A stretch of DNA of 64,000 nucleotides from Bacilli bacterium (GCA_045125935.1 JBGVNW010000041.1:66199-130198); one strand, 5' to 3'; shown: positions 18,975-64,000, counted from the first letter of the stretch. Notes: generated by a model from the letters alone, not told the origin. Numbers and translations are program-made.

Positions 18975-19015
18975 AAATTAAAGATATATTATAAAAAAAT
19001 TGTATTATATATATA

Positions 19016-19260: not shown

Positions 19261-19265
19261 AGTAC

Positions 19266-19294: not shown

Positions 19295-19337
19295 TTATAT
19301 TAAGGGAAAAACATAAATTATGCGTATCATATATATG

Positions 19338-19582
19338 GGAACATTTAATAGTTAGGTGGAACCAAACTTCAAGAGAAGGGAGGTGATTATATGAATAAAA
19401 AAGATACACTTATCTTTTTTCAAATAATAATTATCTACCTTTTAATATTATTACTATTCATAGTCTTAATATAAAAGAAAAGCCTAACTAAAATTTTATT
19501 CTAGTTAGGCAACCACCAAAGGTAACACCTAACAGGAAAAAATTAAGTGTTCCTATTTTTATTTTATGCAAGTTTCCTTGAC
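19338..19582 (+). repeat. type-I-toxin-like module, copy 2
   Basis: Second unit of the 322-bp duplication. Confidence 0.9.
19391..19474 (+). CDS. 27-aa hydrophobic peptide (candidate type I toxin), identical peptide
   Basis: Same 27-aa product as 19069-19152, with two synonymous differences. Confidence 0.5.
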   Translation: MNKKDTLIFFQIIIIYLLILLLFIVLI

Positions 19583-19588
19583 AAATTC

Positions 19589-19617
19589 ATCATATCACAA
19601 CATAAATATCTTGTCAA
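19589..19617 (-). promoter_or_regulatory. candidate antisense (antitoxin sRNA) promoter, copy 2
   Basis: Minus strand reads TTGACA (19617-19612)-17 nt-TATGAT (19594-19589). Confidence 0.45.
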
Positions 19618-19646
19618 AATAAAATACCGTTATCGGAACAAAAATA

Positions 19647-19675
19647 TTGACTTTTAGTACCGTCTACGGTATAAT
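19647..19675 (+). promoter_or_regulatory. sigmaA-type promoter of the HTH-pseudoFic/kinase-array operon
   Basis: TTGACT (19647-19652)-17 nt-TATAAT (19670-19675). SD GAGGTGG and ATG 19696 follow. Confidence 0.7.
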
Positions 19676-19695
19676 AAGCAGCCAGAGGTGGTACT

Positions 19696-21347: not shown

Positions 21348-21357
21348 GAGTAAAATT

Positions 21358-22140: not shown

Positions 22141-22149
22141 GGTGATAAA

Positions 22150-22872
22150 ATGCAAAGGATTCCCAACATAAAACTGACACAAGATGATTTTGAAAAATTA
22201 TTAGAGCATAAGATAATAGGTTCTGGTAGTGAGGCAACAATTTGTCGAACTGAAAAACAAAATACCGTATACAAAATTTTTTGTATTGGTAAGAAAGTAT
22301 TTCCAATGCCAGATAATAAAGTAAGAAAAATAGATAAATTATATCAAATGTCGTTAGAGCATATAACTAGCCCAATAAGTACAATAAGCTTAGATGGGAC
22401 ATTAATTGGCTATGAAATGATTTATGATTCAGAAGATAAAACCTTTAATCCTTTCGCACTAAGTAATTCAGAAGTAATTCATTTTTTAAAAGGCACTAAG
22501 GATATTTTAGAACAGCTAGCAAGTAAAGACATAACATATGGTGATGTGGCTGGTCGTAATATTTTGATTAATCATCGTACAGGAACAATAAAATTTTGTG
22601 ATATTGATAACATGCGCGTTGGAGAATATCCAATAGATCTTATCGGTAACACATTACAAAAATACACCAAAGTTCGAGGTGTTGATGCTGCAACAGATGC
22701 CTATATGCACAGTATAATGACATTAAATTCTTTCGACTTGGATGAAGATGAATGTAGTCAAGAAGAATTTGCTTGGTATTTTACGAGAGAAGGTAGAAAA
22801 ATTCTTCATCAAATAAGAGAAAAAACAGCATACAATGGTGAATACATAGTTCAATATGTTAAAAAGAAATAG
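22150..22872 (+). CDS. minimal protein-kinase-like paralog, array member 3
   Basis: GSEATIC, VYKIF, DNKVRK, IGYEM, ITYGDVAGRNILIN, FCDIDN, DAYMHS, NGEYIVQYVKKK. Confidence 0.8.
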   Translation: MQRIPNIKLTQDDFEKLLEHKIIGSGSEATICRTEKQNTVYKIFCIGKKVFPMPDNKVRKIDKLYQMSLEHITSPISTISLDGTLIGYEMIYDSEDKTFNPFALSNSEVIHFLKGTKDILEQLASKDITYGDVAGRNILINHRTGTIKFCDIDNMRVGEYPIDLIGNTLQKYTKVRGVDAATDAYMHSIMTLNSFDLDEDECSQEEFAWYFTREGRKILHQIREKTAYNGEYIVQYVKKK

Positions 22873-22880
22873 GTGATAAT

Positions 22881-23612
22881 ATGACACGACTTAAAAATAT
22901 TGAGTTTTCTGAAAATGAAGTTCATAGATTAATAAAAAAATCTTTCTTCAGCAGTGGTGGAGAAGCAGTAATTTGTCGTACTAATAATCCTAATACACTA
23001 TATAAAATTTTTATCAAAGGAACTATGTATAACACTATAGCGATGAGCGAAAATAAATTAAGAAAACTAGAAAGAATTCATGAAATGGAACTAAAGGGTT
23101 GTGTAAGACCTATACAAACAATATCAAGTCAAGGAAAACTAATTGGTTATGAAATGACATACGATCCAAATGATATAAGATTCTTTCCTGGTTATTTCAA
23201 ACGTAGTGAAGTAGTAAGAAAACTGAAAGAAACAAGAAATATCTTACAATACTTTGCGGACCACGATATAACATATGGCGATATTGCCTTGCGAAATATT
23301 TTATTTAACAAGCATACCGGTGAAGTGAAATTCTGTGATATGGACAATGTAAAAATAGGCGAATATCCAATGGATATAATTCCCACTAGATTAAGAGATT
23401 ATCATGAAATTTGTGGTATTGATGATAAAACAGATGCTTACATGCATAATCTCCTTACACTAGATGCTTTCGGTTTAAGACTATATTACTCTGATAGAGA
23501 TGACATAAGTGAAGAATTTAAAGGAAAAGCCATACCAATAGTTGAATCAATGAAAGAGCCAGAAAACTTTCAAGGTGAATATATAATCCAATATATAAAG
23601 AAAAAAGAGTGA
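22881..23612 (+). CDS. minimal protein-kinase-like paralog, array member 4
   Basis: GGEAVIC, LYKIF, ENKLRK, IGYEM, ITYGDIALRNILFN, FCDMDN, DAYMHN, QGEYIIQYIKKK. Confidence 0.8.
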   Translation: MTRLKNIEFSENEVHRLIKKSFFSSGGEAVICRTNNPNTLYKIFIKGTMYNTIAMSENKLRKLERIHEMELKGCVRPIQTISSQGKLIGYEMTYDPNDIRFFPGYFKRSEVVRKLKETRNILQYFADHDITYGDIALRNILFNKHTGEVKFCDMDNVKIGEYPMDIIPTRLRDYHEICGIDDKTDAYMHNLLTLDAFGLRLYYSDRDDISEEFKGKAIPIVESMKEPENFQGEYIIQYIKKKE

Positions 23613-23616
23613 TAAA

Positions 23617-24381
23617 ATGAAAAATTTACCAAACATTAATTTTACATTAAAAGAAATAGAAGAAATAGTTAAAAGAGATCACATTGTAGGTGGAGAAGCA
23701 GGTATCTATGAAACGGGAAACCAATTAACTTTATATAAAATATTTTGTAAGGCTGAAGAAATACGAAATTCAAATTCATATTCTTTTAACTCAAGTCCCA
23801 TAACAACGATGAGCTATAACAAACTACGAAAACTAGAAAAATTATATCAAATGCAACTAGAACATAGTGTAAGACCGATAAGCACTATTAGTGTAGCTGG
23901 CGAATTGGTAGGCTATGAAATGACAAGAGATCCTAAAGATCAAGTCATAACTTCCGTAAATCTATCAAGGTCTGAATTGATTCACTATCTAGAACAAACC
24001 AAAAATATTTTAGAATATTTTTCTCATCACGATATTATTTATGGCGATGTTGCAAAAAGAAACATTTTAATCAATCACAAAACAAGAACAGCAAAGTTTT
24101 GTGATATGGATAATATAAAGCTTGGAAGTTATGGAATAGATGTAAAATCATGGGAATTAATTTCTTATACAATAGAAAGAGACGGTCTTGATCAAAAAAC
24201 AGATGCCTACATGCACAGTTTAATGACTTTAACCGGTTTAGATATTGACATGGATTTATGTGTACTACAAAATGAATACTTCCATAAACATTTTACTCCA
24301 CCAGCATTTGATGTTATCGAAGGAATCGGAAATCCCAAAAACTACAATGGCGAATACTTAGTACAATACGTAAAAAAATAA
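23617..24381 (+). CDS. minimal protein-kinase-like paralog, array member 5
   Basis: GGEAGIY, LYKIF, YNKLRK, VGYEM, IIYGDVAKRNILIN, FCDMDN, DAYMHS, NGEYLVQYVKK. Confidence 0.8.
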   Translation: MKNLPNINFTLKEIEEIVKRDHIVGGEAGIYETGNQLTLYKIFCKAEEIRNSNSYSFNSSPITTMSYNKLRKLEKLYQMQLEHSVRPISTISVAGELVGYEMTRDPKDQVITSVNLSRSELIHYLEQTKNILEYFSHHDIIYGDVAKRNILINHKTRTAKFCDMDNIKLGSYGIDVKSWELISYTIERDGLDQKTDAYMHSLMTLTGLDIDMDLCVLQNEYFHKHFTPPAFDVIEGIGNPKNYNGEYLVQYVKK

Positions 24382-24399
24382 AAAGAAAGAGGTGAAATT

Positions 24400-25146
24400 A
24401 TGTTATCAATTCCCAATATAATACTTACAAAAGAAGAATATCAACAGTTAATTAAGAACGAACAAATGCGTGGAGGTGAAGCTATAATCTCACCAAGCGG
24501 CAATCCAAATACAAGATATAAACTATTTATGAATCAAGCACATTATGAAAGCCCGATGAATGAAAATAAAACAGTCAAAGTAATTGAACTATATAGAAGA
24601 AATATTCCTTATTTGGTACAACCTCTAAGTACAATCAGTTACAATGGTAAAATGGTTGGTTATGAAATGACTTTTGATAGACATGATAAAAGCCTTGAAT
24701 CACTATCACAGCTATCAAGAAAACAATTAATAGAAATTTTAAAGAAGTCAAAAGAAATTCTTGAACATCTAGCCAGTCAAGACATAACATATGGCGATGT
24801 AACCGCAGACAATATCTTAGTAAATATAAAAACAGGAAGAGTAAGTTTTTGTGATATAGATAATATGCGTGTTGGTGCAAATCCAATCGATATAAAAGGT
24901 TTTAGTTTATCTCGTTATTATGGAAGAGTTGGCCAAATAGATGAAAAAGCCGATGCCTACATGCACAATCTATTAACAATAAAAAAATTACATGCTCCAA
25001 GTAAATATGAATCAGAAATTATAAAAGACTTAGAAAAAGGAATCTTTCCTACAAAGTTTAAACAAACAGCCAGACCAATATTCGAAAGTATGGCAAATCC
25101 AGAAAACTTTACAGGTGAATATGTAATTCAACACGTAAAAAGATAA
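24400..25146 (+). CDS. minimal protein-kinase-like paralog, array member 6
   Basis: GGEAIIS, RYKLF, ENKTVK, VGYEM, ITYGDVTADNILVN, FCDIDN, DAYMHN, TGEYVIQHVKR. Confidence 0.8.
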   Translation: MLSIPNIILTKEEYQQLIKNEQMRGGEAIISPSGNPNTRYKLFMNQAHYESPMNENKTVKVIELYRRNIPYLVQPLSTISYNGKMVGYEMTFDRHDKSLESLSQLSRKQLIEILKKSKEILEHLASQDITYGDVTADNILVNIKTGRVSFCDIDNMRVGANPIDIKGFSLSRYYGRVGQIDEKADAYMHNLLTIKKLHAPSKYESEIIKDLEKGIFPTKFKQTARPIFESMANPENFTGEYVIQHVKR

Positions 25147-25149
25147 AGA

Positions 25150-25179
25150 TTGAAGAAATAGCAAAAATATGATATAATA
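25150..25179 (+). promoter_or_regulatory. internal promoter between array members 6 and 7
   Basis: TTGAAG (25150-25155)-18 nt-TATAAT (25174-25179) with TG at 25170-25171 (extended -10). This is the only gap over 20 nt in the array. Confidence 0.5.
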
Positions 25180-25204
25180 TGCTCACTAATGGGGGATGGT
25201 TAGT

Positions 25205-25963
25205 ATGAAAAGAATGCCTAATATTACTTTTTCAAGGGAAAGTTTAGAGGAGATAACGTATACAGAAAGATTTAGTAAAGGTGGAGAAGCAATTATCTGC
25301 CTAAGTAATAAGCCAAATTCACTATACAAAATTTTTATTAATCCATATACTGGCGAAATAATTGACATGTCAGACAATAAATTTAAGAAAATAGCAACCA
25401 TTTACCAAATGGGACTTGACTATAGTGTAAGACCATTAAGTACCATAAGTATGGACGGAAGACTAGTTGGTTATGAAATGAGTTGTAATCCATTACATGT
25501 TTCTATGAACGAAATATCATTAACTCCTCAACAATTAATTGAAATTTTAAAACGTACCAAAGATGCTTTAGAATATTTTGAATCAAAAGATATAACCTAT
25601 GGCGATGTCAAAAATAACAATATTTTAATAAATAGACATACAGGACAAATAGAATTTTGTGATATGGACAATATCAGATTAGGAGAAAATCCAATAGACC
25701 TAATGGGAAAAGATTTAAGACAATATGTTGCAAAAAATGGAGTTCTTGCTAACGCTGATGCTTATATGCATAATTTATTTGCACTAAAAGAACTAGGCTT
25801 TCCAACTAAATATACAACTAGCGAAGGTGTTATTATGACCCTTGAAAAAGGTGAATACCCAACTGAATTTGAAAAATTTGCTCATCCAATTTTTGAGGGT
25901 ATGGTAAACCCAGAATCATTTAATGGTGAGTATGCCATTCAATATATTAAAAAGGGACGATAA
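25205..25963 (+). CDS. minimal protein-kinase-like paralog, array member 7
   Basis: Start at MKRMPNITF behind GGGGGA. GGEAIIC, LYKIF, DNKFKK, VGYEM, ITYGDVKNNNILIN, FCDMDN, DAYMHN, NGEYAIQYIKK. Confidence 0.8.
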   Translation: MKRMPNITFSRESLEEITYTERFSKGGEAIICLSNKPNSLYKIFINPYTGEIIDMSDNKFKKIATIYQMGLDYSVRPLSTISMDGRLVGYEMSCNPLHVSMNEISLTPQQLIEILKRTKDALEYFESKDITYGDVKNNNILINRHTGQIEFCDMDNIRLGENPIDLMGKDLRQYVAKNGVLANADAYMHNLFALKELGFPTKYTTSEGVIMTLEKGEYPTEFEKFAHPIFEGMVNPESFNGEYAIQYIKKGR

Positions 25964-25964
25964 C

Positions 25965-26684
25965 ATGAGAAGAATTACAGATATCAAATTAACAGAAAAA
26001 GAATTTGCAAATATTAAGCAAAGATTTTGCTTTGACTATGGCAGTGAAGCAGATATTTATACAACCGACAAACCAAACACTTTATATAAAATATTCACTG
26101 GTCGTCACGGTATGTCAGAAAATAAATTACGAAAGATTGAAAGACTGTATCAAATGTCACTAGAGCATAGTGTAAAGCCACTTAGCACCATAAGTTGTAA
26201 CGGAAAATTAGTTGGTTATGAAATGACCTATGATAGAAAAGACCAAGAGTTTAGATATGTAATAAATAAATTAGATCGTGCTCAAAAGATTTATTGGTTA
26301 GAGCAAACAAGAGATATTTTAGAATATTTTGCATCACAAGATATAACATTTGGCGATGTTGCCAGTAGAAATATTCTGATCAATCCCCAGAGTGGTGAGG
26401 CTAAATTTTGTGATATAGATAATATTCGTTTAGGTGAATACCCGGTTGATATAACATCAGAATCTTTAAGTCAATACTGTAGGGTTCGTGGCGTAGATGA
26501 AGAAATAGATGCCTTTGGGCATAATCTAATGACTGTGCATGCCTTATATATATCCCCTTGGGGCGACTTACCAGCATTGAGTCAAATTAAAATGAGAGGT
26601 ATGAAAGTTTATCGTAGTTTACAAAAACCAGAAAAATTTAATGGCGAGTATATAATTCAATATGTAAAAAAGATAGGAAGATAA
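25965..26684 (+). CDS. minimal protein-kinase-like paralog, array member 8
   Basis: Start at MRRITDIKL, 1 nt after the upstream stop. GSEADIY, LYKIF, ENKLRK, VGYEM, ITFGDVASRNILIN, FCDIDN, DAFGHN, NGEYIIQYVKK. Confidence 0.8.
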   Translation: MRRITDIKLTEKEFANIKQRFCFDYGSEADIYTTDKPNTLYKIFTGRHGMSENKLRKIERLYQMSLEHSVKPLSTISCNGKLVGYEMTYDRKDQEFRYVINKLDRAQKIYWLEQTRDILEYFASQDITFGDVASRNILINPQSGEAKFCDIDNIRLGEYPVDITSESLSQYCRVRGVDEEIDAFGHNLMTVHALYISPWGDLPALSQIKMRGMKVYRSLQKPEKFNGEYIIQYVKKIGR

Positions 26685-26685
26685 T

Positions 26686-27438
26686 ATGTCAACAAAAAGA
26701 ATACCAAATGTTGAGTTAACAATAGATGAATTTTTTGCTCTAGAAGACGAAGATAAATTTGCTCAGGGCGGAGAAGCTATTATTTTAAAAACAGAAAGGC
26801 CTAATACTCTTTATAAGTTCTTTAGAGATCAAAATGGCAACTTTATTGATATGCCTGATAATAAATTTAGAAAAATCATAGCATTATATAACTTAAACTT
26901 AAATTATTCTGTAAAACCATTAAGTACAGTAAGTGTTAATGGTCATTTAGTAGGTTATGAAATGACATATAATCCCCAAAGTATTCAGTTTAAGAAAGCT
27001 GGATTAGATCGCGCTAATAAAATAGAAGTTTTAAAAAGAACTAAAGAGATTTTAGAATACTTCGCAACTCAAGATATAACATATGGCGATGTCAAAAGTA
27101 ATAATATTTTAATTGATAGAGTAACAGGAGAAATAGAATTTTGTGATATGGATAATATTCGTATTGGAACATATCCTATGGATCTGGTAGTAGAATATGT
27201 ACAACCCTTTGAAAAATGTGGTAAAATTGAACTGTGTGATGCCTATATTCATAATTTGATGACATTACAACAATTAGGATTTCCTAATAATTATCCAACA
27301 TTTAAAGAGGTTGCAAGAACACTTGCAAGAGAAATATATCCAACAGGATTTTCCAAAGAAGCAAAGGAAGTTTTTGAAAGTATGATAATTCCAAGAAAAT
27401 TCAATGGAGAATATGTAATTCAATACGTAAAAAAATAG
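26686..27438 (+). CDS. minimal protein-kinase-like paralog, array member 9
   Basis: GGEAIIL, LYKFF, DNKFRK, VGYEM, ITYGDVKSNNILID, FCDMDN, DAYIHN, NGEYVIQYVKK. Confidence 0.8.
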   Translation: MSTKRIPNVELTIDEFFALEDEDKFAQGGEAIILKTERPNTLYKFFRDQNGNFIDMPDNKFRKIIALYNLNLNYSVKPLSTVSVNGHLVGYEMTYNPQSIQFKKAGLDRANKIEVLKRTKEILEYFATQDITYGDVKSNNILIDRVTGEIEFCDMDNIRIGTYPMDLVVEYVQPFEKCGKIELCDAYIHNLMTLQQLGFPNNYPTFKEVARTLAREIYPTGFSKEAKEVFESMIIPRKFNGEYVIQYVKK

Positions 27439-56585: not shown

Positions 56586-57107
56586 ATGAGATTAGATTTT
56601 ATGTTTAAAGACGCCCTAACAAGAAAAATCCAAATATCAACTGTACAATTAGATTTTGTCTCCCCAAAAAGATTTAACTTATCATACATCGATGAAAATG
56701 GAAATAAACAAGTACCAGTAATGGTCTATCGAGCAGTCCTAGGTTCGTATGAAAGATTCCTAGTTCTTCTCTTAGAACAATTCAAAGAAGTTCTACCAAT
56801 ATGGTTATCACCAGTCCAAGTAAATATTATTCCAGTAAATGTAAAATATCATGATGAGTACTGTCGTAAGTTAAGGGATATGTTACTTGAAGAGGATATT
56901 CGAGTAGAGTATGATGATTAAAATGAAAAACTAGGTAAAAAGATTAGAAATAGTAATATTATGAAAAATCCAATCTCAGTAATCATAGGTGATAATGAAC
57001 GAAATAATAACTTAGTAAGTTTTATAAGAATTGGAAGTGAAGAGAATTATTCTTTACCGATGGAGGAGTTTATTAAGTTTATCAAGGAAGAGATTAGGAA
57101 GAGATAG
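56586..57107 (+). pseudogene. thrS: 3' remnant of a threonyl-tRNA synthetase gene with in-frame stop
   Basis: ..STVQLDFVSPKRFNLSYIDENGNKQVPVMVYRAVLGSYERFLVLLLEQ...PIWLSPVQVNIIPV.. matches class II core motif 3 and the start of the anticodon-binding domain. TAA at 56920-56922 interrupts the frame, which continues (..EKLGKKIRNSNIMKNPISVIIGDNE..) to TAG 57105-57107. The N-terminal ~450 aa are absent. Confidence 0.75.
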
Positions 57108-57111
57108 TAGT

Positions 57112-57141
57112 TTGACAGATTATTTATAAGTGATATATAAT
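57112..57141 (+). promoter_or_regulatory. sigmaA-type promoter of candidate sRNA
   Basis: TTGACA (57112-57117)-18 nt-TATAAT (57136-57141). Confidence 0.55.
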
Positions 57142-57147
57142 GTTTGT

Positions 57148-57252
57148 ACGAAAAAGAGTCAATCTTTTTTGAGGATGGTCGTGACCCGTAGGGTTGCGGT
57201 TATCTGTCTAATGAAGATAATCCCAGTCCGTTTGGATGGGGCATCTTTTTTT
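57148..57252 (+). ncRNA. candidate ~105-nt structured small RNA (unclassified)
   Basis: Locally GC-rich. 14-bp helix 57174-57187 / 57191-57204 containing five G.U pairs, so it is plus-strand specific. Terminator-like hairpin CCCAGTCC-GTTT-GGATGGGG followed by T7 (57246-57252). Confidence 0.4.
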
Positions 57253-57386
57253 ATGTAAATATTTCAGTTGGTTACATTTTGTAACCGATTGATTGAACTC
57301 GCAACAATTTTTCATGAAATAATTAACTATTATTTGCTTTTTTATTTCTTGTTTTTTGTTATAATAATTGTAACGGAGGTGCTGTT

Positions 57387-58235
57387 ATGTCAGAAAGAGA
57401 ATTAGATTCAAGTATGATTGATTATGTTGAGAATGAAACACCTAAAAATTATATAAAACAGTTACAATGGGATATGGCTATTGGTTTACAAGAAGTAGAT
57501 GATTTAAAACCTTCTAAATATTTAGAAAAGTTATTACAAGAAAATGTAACTGGTGAAAAAACTATTTATGAAGTGGAACAAGAGTTAAAACAATATTATG
57601 TCGATAAAAATACAAATGATGAAAAGATACATGATGAATATGAATGTGATCTAGTATCGACAAGAATTGTTCAATTATTAGAAGAGGATAAGTTTGAATT
57701 ATCTGTTGATTATATAAAATATGTTCATGAGTATTTATTTAGAGATGTGTATGAATTTGCAGGTGAATTTAGAAAAGTAGATTTTTCTAAATATGAAAGA
57801 ATTTTAAATAATGATTCAGTTGCGTATGGTGATTGCAGAACATTAGAAGAATCATTAGAATATGATCTTGTTTTGGAGAAAAATAGAAATTATGATGAAA
57901 TGAACATTGTAGAAGTTATTAATAATATAACTAATTTTTCTTCAAGTATATGGCAAATTCATCCTTTTAGAGAAGGTAATACTAGAACAACAGCTTTATT
58001 TATTGAAAAATATTTAATTTCTCTTGGATATAATGTAGATAATACTATGTTTAAAGAAAAATCAGTTTACTATAGAAATGCAATGGTAAGAAGTAATTAC
58101 TATAATAATTATTTAAATATAAAACAAGATAATAGTTATTTAATTAAATTTTATGAAAATTTATTGTTAGGGAAGAATAATGATTTACATTCACGAGACT
58201 TAATTGTAAAAGAATTGTTTGATGAGAGTAAATAA
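57387..58235 (+). CDS. Fic-domain protein with variant motif HPFREGNTRTTA
   Basis: Motif at 57960-57995. It deviates from HxFx(D/E)GNGRxxR at two positions (G to T, last R to A). 282 aa. Confidence 0.8.
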   Translation: MSERELDSSMIDYVENETPKNYIKQLQWDMAIGLQEVDDLKPSKYLEKLLQENVTGEKTIYEVEQELKQYYVDKNTNDEKIHDEYECDLVSTRIVQLLEEDKFELSVDYIKYVHEYLFRDVYEFAGEFRKVDFSKYERILNNDSVAYGDCRTLEESLEYDLVLEKNRNYDEMNIVEVINNITNFSSSIWQIHPFREGNTRTTALFIEKYLISLGYNVDNTMFKEKSVYYRNAMVRSNYYNNYLNIKQDNSYLIKFYENLLLGKNNDLHSRDLIVKELFDESK

Positions 58236-58240
58236 AAACT

Positions 58241-58270
58241 ACAGGTCATAATTTTAACCTGTTTTTTTTG
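58241..58270 (+). terminator. intrinsic terminator after Fic gene
   Basis: ACAGGT-CATAATTTTA-ACCTGT followed by T8. Confidence 0.8.
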
Positions 58271-58358
58271 TTTGATGAAAAGTAATAGTTTTATTTTAAA
58301 CAAGTAATATGTAATTAATTGTTATCTGTGGTAAACTATATGTGAGGTGATTATTGTA

Positions 58359-59195
58359 ATGTTTAAACCTAAGGTTAGAGGCTCTTTTTCAGATAGAACT
58401 GGAAATGATAAAATAAATATGACTATTCAAAAAGACGAGCTTGATGAACGAACTAGAAATACTATTGTAAATTTATTTGATTATATATTAAATGTATGTG
58501 AAAATCGTAATAGAGAAGACGTTTGCTATTCATATATTTATAAACATATTTTTTGTGTTACGAAAGATGAGATTCCTTATCATTATAGTGAGAAGAGAAA
58601 ATACATTGTTGATGGAATAAAAAGCGATTGGGAATATTATGATATATTTTCGTTTTTAGAGTCATTGTTAGAGTGGTTTTGTAATAGTGATTTTACTGAT
58701 AGTACTTATGACATATTTAATGAAATGTTTGAAAAAGAATGTGTTGGTTATAGATTTATTGAAGGCAAGATAACTGATATAATTGACGATGTTGAGATTT
58801 CTGAAGTGGAAGATGCTTTAGATAATAAATTTTCTGCATGCAAGAAAAGTATAACGAAAGCATTTAATCTACTTTATGACAGAGAGAATCCGGATTATCC
58901 TAATTCTGTTAAAGAATCAATTTCTGCTATAGAAGCTATGTGTAATATTATTTTAGGAAAGGATAATGCAACATTGGGTGATGCATTAAAGCAGTTAGAA
59001 AAGCAAGGTGTTAAGATTCATGGAGCAATGAAGACTGCTTTTTCCTCTCTTTATGGATATACATCTGACAAGAGTGGTATTAGACATAATAGTGGTATAG
59101 ATGAAAATACTACATTTGAAGAAGCAAAATATATGTTGGTTTCTTGTTCTGCTTTTTTAAATTATTTGATGCAGGTTTATAGTGATGTAAAATAA
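58359..59195 (+). CDS. AbiJ-NTD4-like N-terminus + Abi_C/HEPN-like C-terminus (abortive-infection-type protein)
   Basis: ATG 58359 behind GAGGTGA. N-terminal FKPKVRGSFSDRTGNDKINMTIQKDELDERTRNTIVN. C-terminal ..SISAIEAMCNIILG...LYGYTSDKSGIRHNSG.. The family call is made from memory of the motif pattern. Confidence 0.55.
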   Translation: MFKPKVRGSFSDRTGNDKINMTIQKDELDERTRNTIVNLFDYILNVCENRNREDVCYSYIYKHIFCVTKDEIPYHYSEKRKYIVDGIKSDWEYYDIFSFLESLLEWFCNSDFTDSTYDIFNEMFEKECVGYRFIEGKITDIIDDVEISEVEDALDNKFSACKKSITKAFNLLYDRENPDYPNSVKESISAIEAMCNIILGKDNATLGDALKQLEKQGVKIHGAMKTAFSSLYGYTSDKSGIRHNSGIDENTTFEEAKYMLVSCSAFLNYLMQVYSDVK

Positions 59196-59232
59196 AAAAC
59201 TACAGGTCATTTATGACTTGTAGTTTTTATTT
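59196..59232. terminator. bidirectional terminator between AbiJ-like gene and kinase paralog 10
   Basis: AAACTACAGGTCAT-TT-ATGACTTGTAGTTT with flanking A- and T-runs. Confidence 0.8.
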
Positions 59233-59306
59233 AGAAGTGCTCAACCCTCGATTATAGGACACTTCTTTAAAGAATATTATATAAATAATAATTTATTTGG
59301 TCAATT

Positions 59307-60020
59307 TTATTTTTTTAAGTACTGAACAATATATTCATTATTAAAGTCTTTTGGATCTTTCATTGACTTTATTGTTTTAAGTGCTGGTCTTTTAAAGTGC
59401 TGTCTTAATTCTCTTCTTGATGTCCAGTAAGTATCTATTCCATATTCTTTCATAGTCATTAGATTATGCATGTACGGATGAAGATTCCTATCTATTGGAC
59501 GTGATGTATTATAGTCAATAACATAACTTGGTAATAAGTCCATTGGAAGTTCATCTAAGGCAATATTATCCATATCACAAAATTCTATTCTACCAGTATT
59601 CCTATCAAATAAAATATTACGAGCTGCTACATCACCATATATGATTCCTAGAGAAGAAAAATATTCTAGGATTTCTTTAGTTTTATTTAAGAAATATAAT
59701 TTTTCTTCTGGTGGTAAGAAATAAATATCAGCTTTAGATAAGTCTATGTCAGAAGTCATTTCGTAACCAACTATGATGTCATCAAGACTAATAGTACAAA
59801 GAGGTTGAACACTATGGTCAACTTTCATGTCATATAATCTAGATATTTTTTTGACTTTATTTTCTGGCATAGCAACAGGAGTTGAACAATGGTAAAAAAA
59901 TTTATATACAGAGTAGGGAGTATCCGCTTCGCAGATTGTTGCTTCTCCACCAAAAGATAATTTTTGGTAGTCAACAAGTCTATAAAACTCATCTCTTGTG
60001 ATTGGTTTATTAGGAATCAT
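59307..60020 (-). CDS. minimal protein-kinase-like paralog, tenth (solitary) copy
   Basis: GGEATIC, VYKFF, ENKVKK, VGYEM, IIYGDVAARNILFD, FCDMDN, HPYMHN, NNEYIVQYLKK. Own promoter on the minus strand (TGCTATAAT, about 60041-60049) and SD AAGGCGGTGA. Confidence 0.8.
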   Translation of the reverse strand: MIPNKPITRDEFYRLVDYQKLSFGGEATICEADTPYSVYKFFYHCSTPVAMPENKVKKISRLYDMKVDHSVQPLCTISLDDIIVGYEMTSDIDLSKADIYFLPPEEKLYFLNKTKEILEYFSSLGIIYGDVAARNILFDRNTGRIEFCDMDNIALDELPMDLLPSYVIDYNTSRPIDRNLHPYMHNLMTMKEYGIDTYWTSRRELRQHFKRPALKTIKSMKDPKDFNNEYIVQYLKK

Positions 60021-60106
60021 AGTGTCACCGCCTTAATTCAAGTTATTATTATAGCACATTGTGTTATATGGGGGGTAGAAGAATCACTTTGTAGTAGAGG
60101 CATTAT

Positions 60107-60394
60107 ATGGATGGTATTATAAGTAGATTTTATAATATTGGTAAAAGTTATATTTCTAAGAATAGTAATATAAGTTGTTTTGATTTGGATACAACTTATT
60201 TTAAGAAGTTATCTGGTAGTAATTGGGAAGAAGTATATGTAGAGTGTGCTAGAGGAAGTGATAAGAATTTTACAAAAGGCTTCTTCTCTAGATGGGATAG
60301 TCATATTAATGACTGTGAAAGAAATCGTTGTCCTAATAAGATTGTACTTAAGTCTGGTGAGTACTTAAGTGATGTGTTAGAGAAGTGTAAATAG
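60107..60394 (+). CDS. hypothetical 95-aa Cys-containing protein
   Basis: ORF divergent from kinase paralog 10 and upstream of the giant ORF. No motif recognised. Confidence 0.4.
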   Translation: MDGIISRFYNIGKSYISKNSNISCFDLDTTYFKKLSGSNWEEVYVECARGSDKNFTKGFFSRWDSHINDCERNRCPNKIVLKSGEYLSDVLEKCK

Positions 60395-60450: not shown

Positions 60451-63400
60451 ATGAAGTTATTAAAAAGTTCGCATTTAGAGGAATATGTGAAAAATAATAA
60501 AAAATTAGCAGAAAGTGAATTTCCTTATATTATTGGTAGACTTTTAAAGAATACGGTTGATGGAATTAATGGTTTTGATATTCCAAGTGGAGATAATGTT
60601 ATTCAAATAGGATTTGATGGTGTAATAAAATTTACTGGAACTAATAAATATTTAGGTGACAAACCTGTTAATATTGAAATTGGAACTGATGCAGATTATA
60701 TATCTAAAGCAAATACGGATATAAAGAAACGAATTCCACGTAAAGATCAGAATTTTGTGTTTATAACGCCATTTAGATGGAATAGTAGAAAAAAATCAAA
60801 AAATGATTGGATATTAGAAAAAAAAGCATTGTATGATTGGAATGATATTAAAATAATTGATGGCTCCGTTTTAGAAGATTGGATAGAAGAAGATATATCA
60901 ACAACAAAGTATATATTAAATAAAATAAATATTGATTTAAATGATATTAGAACTATTGATGAATTAGAAAAACAATTTTCTCTTAAAACAAAGAGAAATT
61001 TGGATTTGAACTTTTTTGATTATGATGATAAAGGTTATGAAAAATTGTTGTCTGAGTTGAAAAAGGATTTTTATAATGTTGTTGCATCTACTAGAGAGGA
61101 AGGTCTTTTTGTTACATTATTTTATTTGAGAAAATTAAAAAAAACTGATGAAGTTTTAATAATTAATAGTTATTCAGCATGGCAAAATATTGTTATTAAT
61201 CAGATTTCCAATAATAATATACTGATTCCAAATTTTTATCATGAAGATGGATTGGAAGTTCCAAAAAATAATATAACTATTTTCATCCATGATAGAGAGG
61301 AACTTATTAAAAAATCTGATTATTCTATTGAACAACGCACAATTAATAATTTACACAAAGCATTAGAAAGTTATTATAAAGATGATAAACAACATATTGA
61401 ATATGATGAAATTAATACTATAATAAGAAAAAGTTTAGGCAGGTATATTCCTTTAAAAAGGGAATTATTTAAAGAGTTTATTGAGCCAAAATGGTATAAA
61501 AAAGAAAATATAAAATTATATCTTTATTTGTTTTTTATTAATGATTTTAAGACTAAAGACTTAAAAATTTTCGAAGAATTCAATGTTGATTTAGATGAAT
61601 TACAAAAAATGTTAAATGAATTAGTAAAAGAAAAAGATCCGTATATTGTTTATTATAAGTATTGGGATGAATATAAAGTTGTTGATATTTACAATGTTAT
61701 TGAATGGCTAGGTCCTTTTATCGATGAAATGTCTATTGATAATTTATGTAAAGTTGCTAGAAAAGTGTTGTTTTACTTAGAACCAAAATATTTACCTGAA
61801 AATATTGGGAAACAATATTATGTTGAAAAAACTGCAATTAGAGAATACAGCAAAGTAGTAAAAAATGGTTTGTTAAAAGGTTTAATAATTACAAAGTTAT
61901 TTTTACAACGTGAAAATAAAGTAACTTTGATAAAAAAGTTAGATGATTTGATTGATCAATATTATAGTATTATAACTACAGAAGGAATGTTTTTAAGTTT
62001 TGCCAACCTAGCAGATAAATTAGTTGAGTTTAACTATGAGAAGTTTCTGAAAAAAGTGCGTGATTCGTTAGGAAATAAAGAGTTTGAGAAAATGTTTGAT
62101 TTAACAAATAAAGATATTATTTTTTCCTCTAATGAATATTGCAGGATTATTTTTGCAATAGAAAAAGCAATACATAAAAAAGACTATATTGTTGATGCTA
62201 TAGAAACTTTGGCGCTTCTATCAGAAATGAATAATGCGAATTACAAAAATATGGGTAACACACCATTTAATACACTAAGAGATGTATTTATTGGATGGGA
62301 TAACCTTACCTGCCTAGATATGAATGAAAAAATTGTTTTGCTACAACAATTGATAAATAATCATTATGAATTAGGAAAAAAACTTATGAAATCACTTTTA
62401 CCTAGTCGAGGTGGGACGTGGTCTCCTTTACAAAAGCCAGAGTTTGATGTATTTGATGATGTAAAGCCAATCAAATTTGTAAAAGAACAAAAAGATTATT
62501 TTGAAAAATATTATTTGTTATATTTAAATAATTATGTAAATACATTAGATGATTTGGTTTGTATATATGAAGAGACTTATTTTATTGATTTTGAATGTTT
62601 TGCTGCAATAAAAGAAAAGACTATTCATTTGATTGCAAATAGTTCAGATGAAGAAAAGTATAAATTAAAAGAAGAAATTAGTGAAAAACTTAGAGGTTAT
62701 GAAAAATTTCATAATTCTGCGTGGAATTTAAGTTCAAGTGAATTAGAGTATTATACTTTTATTAAAGAACAACTTGTTTATGAAAATCCTATTTATGATT
62801 ATGTTTTTTTATATCAATGGCATATATTTCTTGATGATGTTGATATAAGTGATTTAAGAGTTAGAGCAATTTCATTATTGAATGATAATGATAATAATGA
62901 AGATTTGTTATTAGAAAAATGTGATAATAAAAATGCGCTTATATGTGATATTTATAAATATAAACATAATTGCCATCATAATATAGATTTTTTAAAAAAA
63001 TTATTTGATAAATATGGTGATTATGTTACTTCATATTTGAGAATGATATATTTAAATGAGACTGTTGAAGAAGTGATTAGTGTATTTAATAGTGATAAAT
63101 TAAATTATTTGTCATTAGAAAAACGTATCATAATATTGTCGCACATGGGATTTAATAATTTGGCTTATAATGAAATTAAGGACAGCGAAGCAGAATCATA
63201 TTATTGGAATAAGTTGAATATGTTTGATGGTGAAAGAAATGATTTTGTATATAAATTATGTTTAAAATATGGTAATTTTGATTTTTGCCTTGATATGCTT
63301 TACGAAAAGGCTGATATGTATGATGAAAAATGTGAACTGTTAGAGAAAATTAGAGATTCTAAAGTAAAGGCAAGTAAATTAGATGAATATAAAATAGAAA

Positions 63401-64000
63401 AAATATTTGAGAGTTTCTATAATTATACGAAAATTGATAATTTTGAAAGATTATCTAAATTAGAAATCTATTTTGGTCCAATATTACAAAATAGTACATA
63501 CTTTTTGTCAAAAGAAGCAAATAAATATCCTAGCATTGTTGCAGAATTAGTGGAAATAGTCTATAAAGACGAAGATGGGAATTCAAGTGATTATGTAGAA
63601 ATGGAAACAGTTGTTTCTACTTGTTTTGAAAAGTTACATAATTTAGAGATTGACTTTAATAATATCGATGCATTTAAATGGTGTGATGAATTTCTAGAAT
63701 TAATGAAAGAAAAGAAAAGAAGTCAAGTTATGTTTCATGTTTTAGGTCAATTATTGGCGAGAACTAATAATGATAAAGAAGATGGTATGTTTCCTTCTAA
63801 AATAGTTAGAAAAGTGATTGAACATTATAAATCTGATGATTTAGCAAGTTCATTTAAAATTGAAAAGTATAATCAAAGAGGTATGCATTTTATTGGTATT
63901 GGAGAAGAAGAATATTCTTTATATAAAAAGTATTCTGATTGGTCAAATAAAATGAAAATAGAATATCCTAAAACATCTAAAATTTTGAAAGACTTAGCGG
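60451..64000 (+). CDS. very large hypothetical protein (more than 1183 aa, 3' end outside window)
   Basis: ATG 60451 behind AAAGGAGC, with TAG at 60427 closing the frame upstream. I read frame 1 codon by codon to 63999 and found no stop. It is absent from the ORF track because it is open at the window edge. No Walker A motif seen. Confidence 0.85.
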   Translation, partial: MKLLKSSHLEEYVKNNKKLAESEFPYIIGRLLKNTVDGINGFDIPSGDNVIQIGFDGVIKFTGTNKYLGDKPVNIEIGTDADYISKANTDIKKRIPRKDQNFVFITPFRWNSRKKSKNDWILEKKALYDWNDIKIIDGSVLEDWIEEDISTTKYILNKINIDLNDIRTIDELEKQFSLKTKRNLDLNFFDYDDKGYEKLLSELKKDFYNVVASTREEGLFVTLFYLRKLKKTDEVLIINSYSAWQNIVINQISNNNILIPNFYHEDGLEVPKNNITIFIHDREELIKKSDYSIEQRTINNLHKALESYYKDDKQHIEYDEINTIIRKSLGRYIPLKRELFKEFIEPKWYKKENIKLYLYLFFINDFKTKDLKIFEEFNVDLDELQKMLNELVKEKDPYIVYYKYWDEYKVVDIYNVIEWLGPFIDEMSIDNLCKVARKVLFYLEPKYLPENIGKQYYVEKTAIREYSKVVKNGLLKGLIITKLFLQRENKVTLIKKLDDLIDQYYSIITTEGMFLSFANLADKLVEFNYEKFLKKVRDSLGNKEFEKMFDLTNKDIIFSSNEYCRIIFAIEKAIHKKDYIVDAIETLALLSEMNNANYKNMGNTPFNTLRDVFIGWDNLTCLDMNEKIVLLQQLINNHYELGKKLMKSLLPSRGGTWSPLQKPEFDVFDDVKPIKFVKEQKDYFEKYYLLYLNNYVNTLDDLVCIYEETYFIDFECFAAIKEKTIHLIANSSDEEKYKLKEEISEKLRGYEKFHNSAWNLSSSELEYYTFIKEQLVYENPIYDYVFLYQWHIFLDDVDISDLRVRAISLLNDNDNNEDLLLEKCDNKNALICDIYKYKHNCHHNIDFLKKLFDKYGDYVTSYLRMIYLNETVEEVISVFNSDKLNYLSLEKRIIILSHMGFNNLAYNEIKDSEAESYYWNKLNMFDGERNDFVYKLCLKYGNFDFCLDMLYEKADMYDEKCELLEKIRDSKVKASKLDEYKIEKIFESFYNYTKIDNFERLSKLEIYFGPILQNSTYFLSKEANKYPSIVAELVEIVYKDEDGNSSDYVEMETVVSTCFEKLHNLEIDFNNIDAFKWCDEFLELMKEKKRSQVMFHVLGQLLARTNNDKEDGMFPSKIVRKVIEHYKSDDLASSFKIEKYNQRGMHFIGIGEEEYSLYKKYSDWSNKMKIEYPKTSKILKDLA

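What the first reader, a model, noticed from the sequence alone, without database searches (positions are those of the whole stretch)
57387..60020. Tenth kinase paralog sits alone beside a second Fic protein and an AbiJ/HEPN-like gene: recurrent Fido-kinase linkage
A full-length member of the same kinase family lies 32 kb from the array on the opposite strand. It carries GGEATIC, VYKFF, VGYEM, IIYGDVAARNILFD, FCDMDN and NNEYIVQYLKK, and has its own extended -10 promoter. Its neighbours are a Fic protein with the variant motif HPFREGNTRTTA and a protein resembling AbiJ-NTD4 + Abi_C/HEPN abortive-infection proteins. The kinase family thus appears twice in this window, each time within two genes of a Fido-fold protein, and the solitary copy sits in a defence-type context. 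This supports a conflict-system role for the family. The window contains three Fido-domain genes in total: 19696, 37158 and 57387.
Basis: partly seen in the sequence, partly recalled or inferred. Interest (0 to 1): 0.65.

Follow-up and report, generated by a model that had tools for sequence, protein, structure and literature searches.

The report
Lone kinase gene anchoring defence hotspot
The three genes are real, but the Fic and AbiJ-like genes are interchangeable defence-type cargo dropped next to a conserved small kinase gene in this one genome, so there is no recurrent Fic–kinase partnership.

Summary
All three genes exist as described: a Fic protein (57387-58235, motif HPFREGNTRTTA), an AbiJ-NTD4 protein (58359-59195) and a tenth, intact copy of the small kinase family (59307-60020, minus strand) with a TGCTATAAT extended -10. 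The kinase has a confident protein-kinase fold and invariant catalytic Lys/Asp/Asn/Asp.

The proposed Fido-kinase linkage fails the comparative test. In 9 related kinase arrays and 13 related solitary copies, about 400 kb of flanking DNA, no Fic or AbiJ homologue occurs. Arrays always lie between a conserved 369-aa gene and rluB. The array-side Fic is an insertion specific to this genome and lacks the catalytic His.

The solitary copies form their own clade (100/100 bootstrap) under purifying selection (dN/dS about 0.15). The kinase is the only gene shared by all 13 loci. Its flanks are mosaic and carry Cas9, restriction-modification, KAP NTPase, HEPN-Toprim, Mrr and Abi_2 genes. Solitary-copy neighbours hit 266 PADLOC families; array neighbours hit 3.

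So the defence-type context is real and recurrent, but as a cargo hotspot. Fic (PDC-S72) and AbiJ-like (PDC-S32) are independent single-gene cassettes that occur elsewhere without each other or this kinase. The kinase's own function remains unknown.

The parts
59307..60020 (-). Solitary minimal protein-kinase-like gene (237 aa), copy 10 of the family. It is the conserved anchor of the locus.
   Evidence: ORF and motifs. AF2 model pLDDT 93.6, and Foldseek against PDB protein kinases gives E 5.6e-9, TM 0.62. The family profile hits MAPK6 at 2e-7. K40, D130, N135 and D149 are invariant in 54 sequences. Orthologues are 47-82% identical in 13 other loci. dN/dS is about 0.15.
60048..60056 (-). Extended -10 promoter element TGCTATAAT of the kinase gene. 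The RBS AAGGCGG lies at 60033-60027.
   Evidence: Read directly from the sequence.
59195..59233 (.). Hairpin terminator shared by the convergent AbiJ-like and kinase genes (AAAAACTACAGGTCAT-TT-ATGACTTGTAGTTTTT). It is ancestral to the kinase locus.
   Evidence: Inverted repeat I6 and sequence. The same hairpin lies downstream of the kinase orthologue in L001.
58359..59195 (+). AbiJ-NTD4 protein (278 aa; the ORF listing start at 58347 is a GTG). N-terminal AbiJ_NTD4 domain plus a helical C-terminal domain with invariant E196, H225 and R246-H247. Member of the PADLOC candidate family PDC-S32.
   Evidence: Pfam AbiJ_NTD4 2e-20. PADLOC PDC-S32 2.2e-87 over the full length. 3466 homologues. Alignment invariants. 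A RefSeq homologue is annotated 'AbiJ-NTD4 domain-containing protein'.
58234..58249 (+). 16-nt exact direct repeat AAAAACTACAGGTCAT; the second copy is at 59195-59210. The two copies bracket the AbiJ-like cassette and equal the left arm of the kinase terminator.
   Evidence: Direct repeat D18 and inverted repeat I6; sequences.
57387..58235 (+). Fic-domain protein (282 aa) with the non-canonical motif HPFREGNTRTTA (nt 57960-57995). Member of the PADLOC candidate family PDC-S72. Its own promoter TTTTTTGTTATAAT lies about 25 nt upstream.
   Evidence: Pfam Fic 1.8e-12. PDC-S72 1.5e-77. More than 7600 homologues, many 80-85% identical, in gut metagenomes. Homologues are on plasmids of Campylobacter, Paraclostridium, Bacteroides and Treponema. 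The promoter is conserved with the cassette in L031.
57107..59184 (.). Window-specific insert relative to the closest relative L001: 2079 bp here against 691 bp there. It holds the Fic and AbiJ-like cassettes.
   Evidence: In the blastn alignment, window 56592-57106 matches L001 12081-11567 and window 59185-60256 matches L001 10876-9767.
56586..57106 (+). 3' remnant of thrS (threonyl-tRNA synthetase): a 111-aa ORF plus out-of-frame continuation. It marks the ancestral neighbour of the kinase locus.
   Evidence: Pfam tRNA-synt_2b and HGTP_anticodon. 86% identity to the full-length 511-aa thrS beside the kinase in L001.
60107..60394 (+). Degraded copy (95 aa, 48-aa internal deletion) of a 143-aa ORF family that lies divergent from the solitary kinase in L001, L014, L019, L023 and L036.
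   Evidence: blastp 52-59% identity, 95 query residues spread over a 143-column alignment. Cluster C1 in the synteny map. No Pfam or PADLOC match.
60451..64000 (+). Large ORF (more than 1183 aa, runs off the window). It is variable cargo on the other side of the kinase and is absent from all related loci.
   Evidence: Open frame. No Pfam, PADLOC or NCBIfam hit. phrog_18693 at 4.3e-57. No homologue in any locus.
20595..27438 (+). Array of nine kinase paralogs, given for context. It is ancient, with positional orthologues in relatives, and always lies between the 369-aa gene (17837-18946) and rluB (27452-28171).
18947..20595 (+). Window-specific insert upstream of the array. It holds two tandem copies of a 27-aa hydrophobic-peptide gene plus an HTH-Fic gene (19696-20595) with the degenerate motif SPFKDNNLKTA.
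   Evidence: Relatives have only 37-320 bp between the 369-aa gene and the first kinase. Pfam HTH_17 and Fic. Motif and peptides.

Best explanation
The 57.1-60.0 kb region is one instance of a chromosomal accessory-gene (defence) hotspot in a lineage of uncultured, low-GC gut Bacilli. The fixed element is the solitary minimal kinase gene with its promoter and hairpin terminator. It is an old, translocated paralog of the nine-gene array, kept under purifying selection.

The DNA on both sides of it is exchanged between genomes. In this genome the downstream slot holds two unrelated single-gene cassettes.
1. A horizontally mobile 282-aa Fic protein of the PDC-S72 candidate family. By inference it is a toxic protein-modifying enzyme with an altered nucleotide-binding motif, acting in an abortive-infection-like way as described for SoFic.
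2. An AbiJ-NTD4 protein of the PDC-S32 candidate family. By inference from Anantharaman et al. 2013, it has an N-terminal sensor domain plus a C-terminal helical, probably HEPN-like, effector domain. This cassette appears to have been inserted into the kinase's terminator, because a 16-nt duplication of the terminator arm brackets it.

The kinase is predicted to be catalytically active, but it is not a dedicated partner of Fic or AbiJ. Its proximity to them, and the proximity of another Fic to the array, reflect cargo insertion in this particular Fic-rich genome.

Shown: gene identities, fold, synteny, absence of Fic/AbiJ from related loci, and defence enrichment around solitary copies. Inferred: the defence activity of the two cassettes, the activity of the kinase, and the insertion mechanism.
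For: Insert mapping against the 82%-identical orthologous locus L001 places Fic and AbiJ in a window-specific 2.1-kb segment.

No Fic or AbiJ homologue, and no Fic motif, occurs in any kinase locus of relatives, by phmmer, tblastn and regex or by Pfam annotation of called genes.

In the synteny map, the kinase is the only cluster present in all 13 solitary loci, and both flanks are mosaic. Cargo elsewhere includes:
- Cas9-Cas1-Cas2-Csn2, an N6_Mtase/Eco57I gene and Abi_2;
- RE_AlwI plus two methylases and DUF4238;
- KAP_NTPase and HEPN_Toprim_N;
- Mrr_cat;
- AAA_15;
- a type II methyltransferase.

At E<=1e-8, 266 PADLOC families are hit by 131 neighbours of solitary copies, against 3 families by 101 neighbours of arrays.

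The two cassettes are independent. An 84%-identical Fic homologue sits beside an integrase with no AbiJ or kinase. A 74%-identical AbiJ-like homologue sits without Fic. In the window each has its own promoter or terminator, and 16-nt direct repeats bracket the AbiJ cassette.

The kinase is conserved. The solitary clade has 100/100 bootstrap support, dN/dS is 0.14-0.16, similar to rluB at 0.18, and the catalytic residues are invariant. It is absent from phage and plasmid collections.
Against: - The comparison set is modest (22 loci) and comes from one lineage of metagenome-assembled genomes. Many contigs are short.
- In this genome the array-side Fic stop codon overlaps the first kinase start by one base (TAATG), which suggests co-transcription here.
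- The solitary kinase is embedded in defence-rich DNA in at least seven of 13 loci. Guilt-by-association logic would count that as evidence that it is itself defence-related.
- The genes immediately next to the kinase in relatives are unannotatable ORFans, so an unrecognised conserved partner cannot be excluded. The 143-aa ORF family is present in 6 loci.
- PDC-S72 and PDC-S32 are unvalidated candidates, described as 'phage defence candidate' genes in PMC11514479.
Confidence: 0.72

Rival explanations
1. The solitary kinase is itself a functional part of the island. For example, it could be a sentinel or regulatory kinase that senses infection or controls neighbouring defence cargo, or a stand-alone kinase-type defence gene. 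That would explain why it is always retained in the middle of variable defence DNA.
For: It is the only gene shared by all 13 mosaic loci, and variable genes lie on both sides. It is almost always the lone gene on its strand. Defence genes are strongly enriched around it but not around the array. It may be patchy among the genome-collection MAGs: found in 3 of the 11, while arrays are found in 8. Kinase-based defence genes are known (PD-T4-6, PglW, mad6 models in PADLOC).
Against: No significant match to any defence-kinase model: the best is mad6 at 2e-4 over 50 residues. It evolves under purifying selection at a housekeeping-like rate. It has no partner gene conserved across all loci. Conserved genes flanking hotspots are usually unrelated core genes. 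Its closest paralogs, and a distant homologue, sit in housekeeping or metabolic contexts. The patchiness estimate is confounded by MAG incompleteness and by the pattern-based search.
Confidence: 0.18
2. One reading: the kinase family and Fido-fold proteins form a recurrent two-component conflict system. The kinase would regulate or be regulated by Fic-mediated modification, or both would act on the same target.
For: In this window both kinase loci lie within two genes of a Fic gene. The array-side Fic overlaps the first kinase by 1 nt. With 3 Fic genes among about 60 genes, two such adjacencies have a nominal chance probability of roughly 0.03-0.04 (own estimate).
Against: Fic is found at 0 of 9 related arrays and 0 of 13 related solitary copies. 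Both Fic genes are in window-specific inserts. The three Fic proteins belong to different subfamilies: PDC-S72, PDC-S04/SoFic-like with a dead motif, and RhuM-Doc/PDC-S23. Close Fic homologues occur without kinases.
Confidence: 0.04
3. The AbiJ-like gene and the kinase are a functional pair (convergent genes sharing one terminator), with the kinase modulating the AbiJ-type effector.
For: The two genes are convergent, 112 bp apart, with a shared hairpin. A 74% AbiJ-like homologue in another Bacilli MAG is likewise convergent with a protein kinase (L027-L030). Anantharaman et al. 2013 report fusions of other AbiJ-NTD domains (NTD1, NTD3) to protein kinases (PMC3710099).
Against: The kinase in L027 is a canonical 477-aa Hanks kinase with no detectable relation to this family. 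None of 13 orthologous solitary kinases has an AbiJ-like neighbour. The AbiJ cassette is bracketed by a duplication of the pre-existing kinase terminator, which indicates secondary insertion.
Confidence: 0.04
4. Fic and the AbiJ-like protein together form a two-gene toxin-antitoxin or defence operon.
For: They are adjacent, on the same strand, 112-124 bp apart depending on the AbiJ-like start, and both belong to defence-candidate families.
Against: PADLOC lists hits to both under single-gene candidate names (the 'S' series; own recollection, not checked here). Each occurs alone elsewhere. A hairpin with a T-run lies between them (58241-58262). The AbiJ cassette has its own flanking repeats.
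Confidence: 0.03

Closest known systems
Chromosomal defence islands / defence hotspots bounded by conserved marker genes
   Same: A fixed conserved gene is surrounded by highly variable cargo rich in CRISPR-Cas, R-M, Abi, KAP NTPase and HEPN genes, and the cargo differs in every genome examined.
   Different: A single small kinase gene sits between two variable flanks, rather than a pair of core genes bracketing one slot. No integrase or tRNA lies at the site. The only trace of a cassette-exchange mechanism is a 16-nt duplication of a terminator arm.
SoFic and other Fic-domain anti-phage / toxin proteins (Pfam PF02661; PADLOC SoFic, PDC-S04, PDC-S72)
   Same: Single-gene Fic-domain protein of about 280 aa with the HPFxEGN core, found in a defence context and on mobile DNA. 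SoFic is reported to cause abortive infection by AMPylation (PMC12249575 abstract).
   Different: The motif is HPFREGNTRTTA instead of HxFx(D/E)GNGRxxR: the second Gly and the final Arg are missing. No (S/T)xxxE(G/N) inhibitory motif is present. The match to the SoFic model is weak (5.7e-5), while PDC-S72 matches at 1.5e-77. PDC-S72 has no reported validation in the text searched.
AbiJ family: AbiJ-NTD4 + AbiJ-type HEPN (Anantharaman et al. 2013, PMC3710099); Pfam PF18863 / PF14355; PADLOC PDC-S32
   Same: An N-terminal AbiJ_NTD4 domain of about 150 aa is followed by a helical C-terminal domain of about 120 aa. This is the architecture and size described for AbiJ-NTD4 proteins.
   Different: The C-terminal domain does not reach significance against Abi_C. 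Its invariant residues form an adjacent R-H dyad (GIRH) rather than Rx4-6H. Structural similarity to HEPN is weak.
Eukaryotic-type (Hanks) protein kinases, and minimal bacterial kinases such as OspG/NleH or Bud32 (the minimal-kinase comparison is from memory, not tested)
   Same: Bilobal kinase fold, beta3 Lys, catalytic-loop Asp and Asn, and a DFG-equivalent Asp are all invariant.
   Different: Only 237-270 aa. Below the Pfam Pkinase threshold (13.9 bits against 31.7). YGD replaces HRD, FCDxDN replaces DFG, and GGEA replaces GxGxxG. There is no conserved alphaC Glu and no APE activation segment. The family is restricted to uncultured gut Bacilli, occurs as ancient tandem arrays of 2-9 copies, and has no source annotation.

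Membership tests
Fic/Fido (Pfam PF02661) | Fic domain HMM above the gathering score | tested here: met
   48.4 bits against a cut-off of 24, E 1.8e-12, residues 105-210.
Fic/Fido (canonical AMPylators) | Motif HxFx(D/E)GNGRxxR complete | tested here: not met
   HPFREGNTRTTA: position 8 is Thr instead of Gly and position 12 is Ala instead of Arg.
Fic classes I-III | Inhibitory helix motif (S/T)xxxE(G/N) in the protein | tested here: not met
   The regex finds no match in the 282-aa protein. A separate small antitoxin gene was not searched for.
PADLOC PDC-S72 (candidate single-gene defence) | HMM match | tested here: met
   E 1.5e-77, protein 11-280 against model 7-275 of 377. The C-terminal ~100 model positions are not covered.
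PADLOC PDC-S72 / PDC-S32 | Demonstrated anti-phage activity | not testable with these tools
   PDC entries are described as candidates only (PMC11514479). No paper in the searched library mentions PDC-S32.
AbiJ family (AbiJ-NTD4 architecture) | AbiJ_NTD4 N-terminal domain | tested here: met
   74.3 bits against a cut-off of 34, residues 13-159. 28 of 28 aligned homologues match.
AbiJ family (HEPN effector) | C-terminal Abi_C/HEPN domain by profile | tested here: not met
   The window protein has no Abi_C hit at E<=0.1. Only 2 of 28 homologues reach E 0.069. The source database's precomputed Pfam column lists PF14355 for 7 of the 120 homologues shown.
AbiJ family (HEPN effector) | Rx4-6H catalytic motif | tested here: not met
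   The invariant residues R246 and H247 are adjacent (GIRH). No conserved His lies 4-6 residues after the Arg.
AbiJ family (HEPN effector) | HEPN four-helix fold | tested here: inconclusive
   AF2 model pLDDT 81, with the GIRH loop below 50. The only Foldseek hits with appreciable probability are HEPN proteins: 1o3u (prob 0.84, E 1.4), 1wol and 2hsb.
Protein kinase-like superfamily | Kinase fold and catalytic Lys / Asp / Asn / Asp | tested here: met
   Foldseek E 5.6e-9, prob 1.0, TM 0.62 to Csk/Src. Family profile against MAPK6 at 2e-7. K40, D130, N135 and D149 are invariant in 54 sequences.
Pfam Pkinase (PF00069) | HMM above the gathering score | tested here: not met
   13.9 bits against 31.7.
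Known defence kinases (PADLOC models incl. PglW, mad6, MkoA) | HMM match to a defence-kinase model | tested here: not met
   The best hits are mad6 at E 2e-4 over 50 residues and MkoA at 0.025. Array copy 1 has none.
Proposed Fido-kinase linked system | Conserved co-localisation of a Fido gene with kinase family members across genomes | tested here: not met
   0 of 9 arrays and 0 of 13 solitary loci.
Defence island / hotspot | Variable, defence-enriched cargo at a conserved chromosomal position | tested here: met
   Synteny map. Pfam annotation of cargo. 266 against 3 PADLOC families.

The most novel reading that the evidence does not exclude
The minimal kinase family is a lineage-specific recognition or immune module of reduced-genome gut Bacilli. 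An ancient array of 2-9 diversified paralogs would provide a repertoire of specificities. The solitary paralog would be a sentinel or regulatory kinase, retained at the centre of a defence hotspot because it senses infection or gates the neighbouring, constantly exchanged defence cargo.
Probability: 0.12. Interest if true: 0.7.

Novelty: new member of a known kind. Interest (0 to 1): 0.3.

Why it matters
As proposed, a recurrent Fido-kinase conflict system would have been a new type of two-component defence. The comparative evidence says it is not one. What remains useful falls into three points.

1. There is a clearly delimited, highly mosaic defence hotspot in an uncultured gut Bacilli lineage. 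It is marked by an easily recognisable conserved gene and could be mined for new defence genes, since many cargo ORFs are unannotated.
2. There is an uncharacterised, very compact protein-kinase family with intact catalytic residues. It is kept as an ancient tandem array in small genomes, and its substrates are unknown.
3. The case is a caution: adjacency seen twice in one genome can arise purely from cargo insertion.

Tried and rejected
- Searched for Fic and AbiJ homologues in all fetched loci by blastp, phmmer (E<=1), tblastn (E<=0.1) and a Fic-motif regex. The only hits were in the loci fetched with Fic or AbiJ themselves.
- Scanned IMG/VR, GenBank phages and PLSDB plasmids for the kinase family. 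Nothing was found.
- The metagenome-contig scan added mostly short contigs. Only L036 and L043 were informative.
- PADLOC, NCBIfam and PHROGs gave nothing significant for the kinase.
- Tested whether the 477-aa kinase beside the AbiJ homologue in L027 belongs to the same family. It does not.
- Tested whether the structured RNA-like element at 57148-57256 is a known RNA, travels with the Fic cassette, or recurs elsewhere. There is no Rfam hit, it is not upstream of the Fic homologue in L031, and it is unique among all loci.
- Sequence-profile search of the AbiJ-like family against the PDB found nothing meaningful.
- Pfam and PADLOC on the immediate neighbours of the solitary kinase in relatives gave no annotation.
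- Literature searches for kinase arrays in RF39-type Bacilli and for PDC-S32/S72 returned nothing relevant.


Full report
**1.
The window is low-GC (about 27%) chromosomal DNA. It carries NusA, IF-2 and other housekeeping genes. Its closest relatives are metagenome-assembled 'Bacilli bacterium' genomes from goat, deer and human gut.

At the stated coordinates there are three ORFs:
- 57387-58235(+), 282 aa;
- 58347-59195(+), 282 aa from a GTG, more probably 278 aa from the ATG at 58359;
- 59307-60020(-), 237 aa.

It aligns end to end with the nine tandem ORFs at 20595-27438 at 36-43% identity. An extended -10 (TGCTATAAT, 60056-60048) and an RBS precede its start.

Pfam confirms Fic in 57387-58235 (48.4 bits, cut-off 24) and AbiJ_NTD4 in 58347-59195 (74.3 bits, cut-off 34). 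It also confirms Fido domains in the genes at 19696 and 37107. The variant motif HPFREGNTRTTA is at residues 192-203.

**2. What the three proteins are.**

*Kinase.* Single sequences only graze Pfam Pkinase (E 0.03). A profile of 54 family members, however, hits MAP kinases in the PDB at 2e-7, from the beta3 lysine to the DFG position. An AlphaFold model is very confident (pLDDT 93.6, pTM 0.90). It superposes on Csk, Src, LIMK1, IRAK4 and other kinases (Foldseek E about 1e-8, TM about 0.6) and on viral Ser/Thr kinases.

K40, D130, N135 and D149 are invariant across the family, so the proteins are probably active. They are unusually small:
- no APE segment;
- no conserved alphaC Glu;
- YGD in place of HRD;
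- FCDxDN in place of DFG.

The 'AAR' that resembles tyrosine kinases is not conserved among the paralogs. The family comprises about 110 clusters at E<=1e-30, all stand-alone proteins of 240-270 aa. No source gives it a name. It is absent from IMG/VR, GenBank phages and PLSDB plasmids.

*Fic.* It matches the PADLOC candidate family PDC-S72 at 1.5e-77 and SoFic only weakly. It has more than 7600 homologues, many of them 80-85% identical, across gut metagenomes. Relatives occur on plasmids of Campylobacter, Paraclostridium, Bacteroides and Treponema. It is therefore a mobile gene.

*AbiJ-like.* It matches PDC-S32 over its full length at 2e-87. RefSeq annotates a homologue as 'AbiJ-NTD4 domain-containing protein'. 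Anantharaman et al. 2013 describe AbiJ-NTD4 as a domain of about 160 aa fused to the AbiJ-type HEPN domain (PMC3710099).

I could not confirm the HEPN half:
- Abi_C is not detected in the window protein and is detected only marginally in 2 of 28 homologues.
- The invariant residues are E196, H225 and an adjacent R246-H247, not Rx4-6H.
- The structure model is moderate (pLDDT 81; the GIRH loop is below 50).
- The only Foldseek hits with appreciable probability are HEPN proteins, but they are not significant (1o3u, prob 0.84, E 1.4).

**3. The comparative test of the Fido-kinase linkage.**
I collected kinase loci from GTDB representative genomes (L001-L012), from assemblies that encode listed homologues (L014-L026) and from JGI metagenomes (L036-L046).

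*Arrays.* Nine loci (L004-L011, L043) carry 2-7 copies. In the seven loci that keep it, the orthologue of window gene 17837-18946 (75-88% identical) comes first, then the array after only 37-320 bp. rluB follows the array in all nine. None has a Fic gene.

In the window, the corresponding gap is a 1.65-kb insert. It holds two tandem copies of a 27-aa hydrophobic-peptide gene and the HTH-Fic gene. That Fic motif is degenerate (SPFKDNNLKTA, no catalytic His).

*Solitary copies.* Thirteen loci carry orthologues 47-82% identical to copy 10. None has a Fic or AbiJ homologue by phmmer, tblastn, motif search or Pfam annotation (and the look-up of encoding contigs tables).

Alignment with the closest locus, L001, shows homology on both sides of the pair. 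Window 56592-57106 matches the 3' end of thrS, and 59185-60256 matches the terminator, the kinase and its upstream region. Between them the window has 2079 bp where L001 has 691 bp. Fic and AbiJ-like are therefore cargo specific to this genome.

They are also independent of each other. An 84% Fic homologue lies next to an integrase, with no AbiJ or kinase. A 74% AbiJ-like homologue lies without Fic. The AbiJ cassette is bracketed by an exact 16-nt direct repeat that equals the left arm of the kinase's hairpin terminator, and that hairpin is also present in L001. Only the Fic promoter and RBS are shared with the Fic cassette found elsewhere.

**4. What is recurrent instead.**
A cluster-based synteny map of the 13 solitary loci shows that the kinase is the only gene common to all. 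Everything on both sides is mosaic, and the kinase is almost always the lone gene on its strand.

The cargo includes:
- a complete type II-A CRISPR-Cas locus directly beside the kinase, plus an N6-MTase/Eco57I gene and Abi_2 (L018);
- RE_AlwI with two cytosine methylases and DUF4238 (L016);
- KAP NTPase, HEPN_Toprim_N and DUF8370/8371 (L014, L019);
- Mrr_cat (L020);
- AAA_15 (L023);
- a type II methyltransferase (L001);
- non-defence cargo such as a YcaO/radical-SAM cluster and ABC transporters (L024, L026).

As a control, I scanned 131 neighbours of solitary copies and 101 neighbours of arrays against PADLOC at E<=1e-8. The first set hit 266 families. The second hit 3, and one of those is a DEDDh exonuclease model.

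In the window, the other flank of the kinase also holds locus-specific material:
- a degraded copy of a 143-aa ORF family that accompanies the kinase in six loci;
- a large ORF of more than 1183 aa found in no related locus, with similarity only to phrog_18693.

It describes a hotspot, not a partnership.

**5. Evolution of copy 10.**
In a neighbour-joining tree of 52 family members, the solitary copies form one clade with 100/100 bootstrap support. With midpoint rooting the clade nests among array clades rather than at the base. The deeper branching was not bootstrapped, so it is uncertain.

Array copies have positional orthologues across genomes; for example window 24400 groups with L004 10735, L008 11532 and L011 8413. 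The array is therefore ancient rather than a recent amplification. One MAG (RGIG2101) has both an array and a solitary copy (L005 and L001).

dN/dS for copy 10 against three orthologues is 0.14-0.16, comparable to rluB at 0.18. A distant single-copy homologue (33-37% identical; L012, L045) sits among metabolic genes: PNP/UDP phosphorylase, ADH, CoaBC and 3-hydroxyacyl-CoA dehydrogenase. Apart from the solitary clade, the family's surroundings are housekeeping.

**6. Most likely mechanism and rivals.**
Best-supported reading (about 0.72): this is a hotspot for accessory and defence cassettes, anchored by a conserved, probably active minimal kinase of unknown substrate. Fic (PDC-S72) and the AbiJ-NTD4 protein (PDC-S32) are independent single-gene cassettes. 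They are predicted, but not shown, to act as abortive-infection-type toxins.

Main rival (about 0.18): the kinase is itself a sentinel or regulator of the island. In favour are its invariable retention amid exchanging cargo and its possibly patchy distribution. Against are its housekeeping-like evolution, the lack of any match to a defence-kinase model, and the housekeeping contexts of its paralogs.

The remaining rivals are each unlikely (0.03-0.04), for the reasons given in their entries:
- the Fido-kinase system;
- an AbiJ-kinase pair;
- a Fic-AbiJ operon.

**7. Novelty and score.**
The two cargo genes are ordinary members of catalogued candidate families. The hotspot is a known kind of feature. 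The kinase family is an undescribed, very compact branch of the protein-kinase superfamily, and its array organisation deserves separate attention. The specific claim of this finding, however, is not borne out. Interest: 0.3.

Noticed in passing
window 57112-57256: A perfect sigma-70 consensus promoter (TTGACA-18-TATAAT, 12/12) is followed by a ~109-nt transcript predicted to fold into three hairpins, the last with a U-run (MFE -37.2 kcal/mol, z -3.75). It has no Rfam match, is not found upstream of the Fic homologue in L031, and is unique among all fetched loci. It may be a small RNA.
   Followed up: partly
window 58234-58249 and 59195-59210: An exact 16-nt direct repeat (AAAAACTACAGGTCAT) brackets the AbiJ-like cassette. 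It equals the left arm of the kinase's conserved terminator hairpin, which suggests cassette insertion into, or recombination at, the terminator.
   Followed up: partly
window 56586-57106: thrS is only a 3' remnant here, with the frame broken at 56921. L001 has an intact 511-aa thrS at this position. An intact copy must lie outside the window. An ABC exporter (54882-56570) occupies the place of the missing 5' part.
   Followed up: partly
window 19069-19152 and 19391-19474: Two identical 27-aa hydrophobic-peptide genes (MNKKDTLIFFQIIIIYLLILLLFIVLI), each with a strong RBS and a downstream hairpin, lie in a 322-bp tandem duplication just upstream of the HTH-Fic gene. They look like type I toxin modules.
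   Followed up: no
window 19696-20595 (motif at 20362-20394): The array-adjacent HTH-Fic protein has SPFKDNNLKTA in place of the Fic motif, with no catalytic His, so it is probably not an AMPylase. Its stop codon overlaps the start of kinase copy 1 by one base (TAATG).
   Followed up: partly
window 37107-38096 and 38290-39723: The third Fido gene is a RhuM + Doc-type protein (motif HVFIDGNKR; PADLOC PDC-S23 1.9e-120). It is followed by an ORF with weak phage-integrase and MutS_I matches, so this is probably an integrated-element remnant.
   Followed up: no
window 60451-64000 (runs off the end): An ORF of more than 1183 aa with no Pfam, PADLOC or NCBIfam match but phrog_18693 at 4.3e-57. It is absent from every related locus and is likely further hotspot cargo of unknown function.
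   Followed up: partly
window 60107-60394; L001 9488-9916, L014 9491-9919, L019 8324-8761, L023 6558-6989: A 143-aa ORF family lies next to the solitary kinase in several genomes, usually divergently transcribed. The window copy has a 48-aa internal deletion. It has no family match anywhere.
   Followed up: partly
L027-L030 (e.g. L027 6001-6843 and 7200-8633): A 74%-identical AbiJ-NTD4 homologue in another Bacilli MAG is convergent with a canonical 477-aa Hanks-type kinase (HRDIRVNN, DFG). That kinase is unrelated to the minimal kinase family. A serine recombinase lies nearby.
   Followed up: partly
window 53607-54503; L019 10962-11858; L020 11977-12870: A 298-aa protein with RNA-polymerase-alpha-CTD/HhH-like repeats and a coiled-coil tail recurs as a landmark on one side of the hotspot. 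It has a weak local similarity to a segment of BREX PglW (PADLOC 4e-6).
   Followed up: no
L008 12389-14404: In one relative the kinase array is interrupted by two unrelated ORFs (318 and 353 aa) between the sixth and seventh copies. Arrays in L009 and L011 contain broken copies. Copy number ranges from 2 to 9 across genomes.
   Followed up: no
L022 1-7433: One solitary-kinase locus carries a 1800-aa ORF, a 366-aa ORF and a protein with a weak adenosine-deaminase match, in a row. This is reminiscent of deaminase-based defence systems. It was not examined.
   Followed up: no
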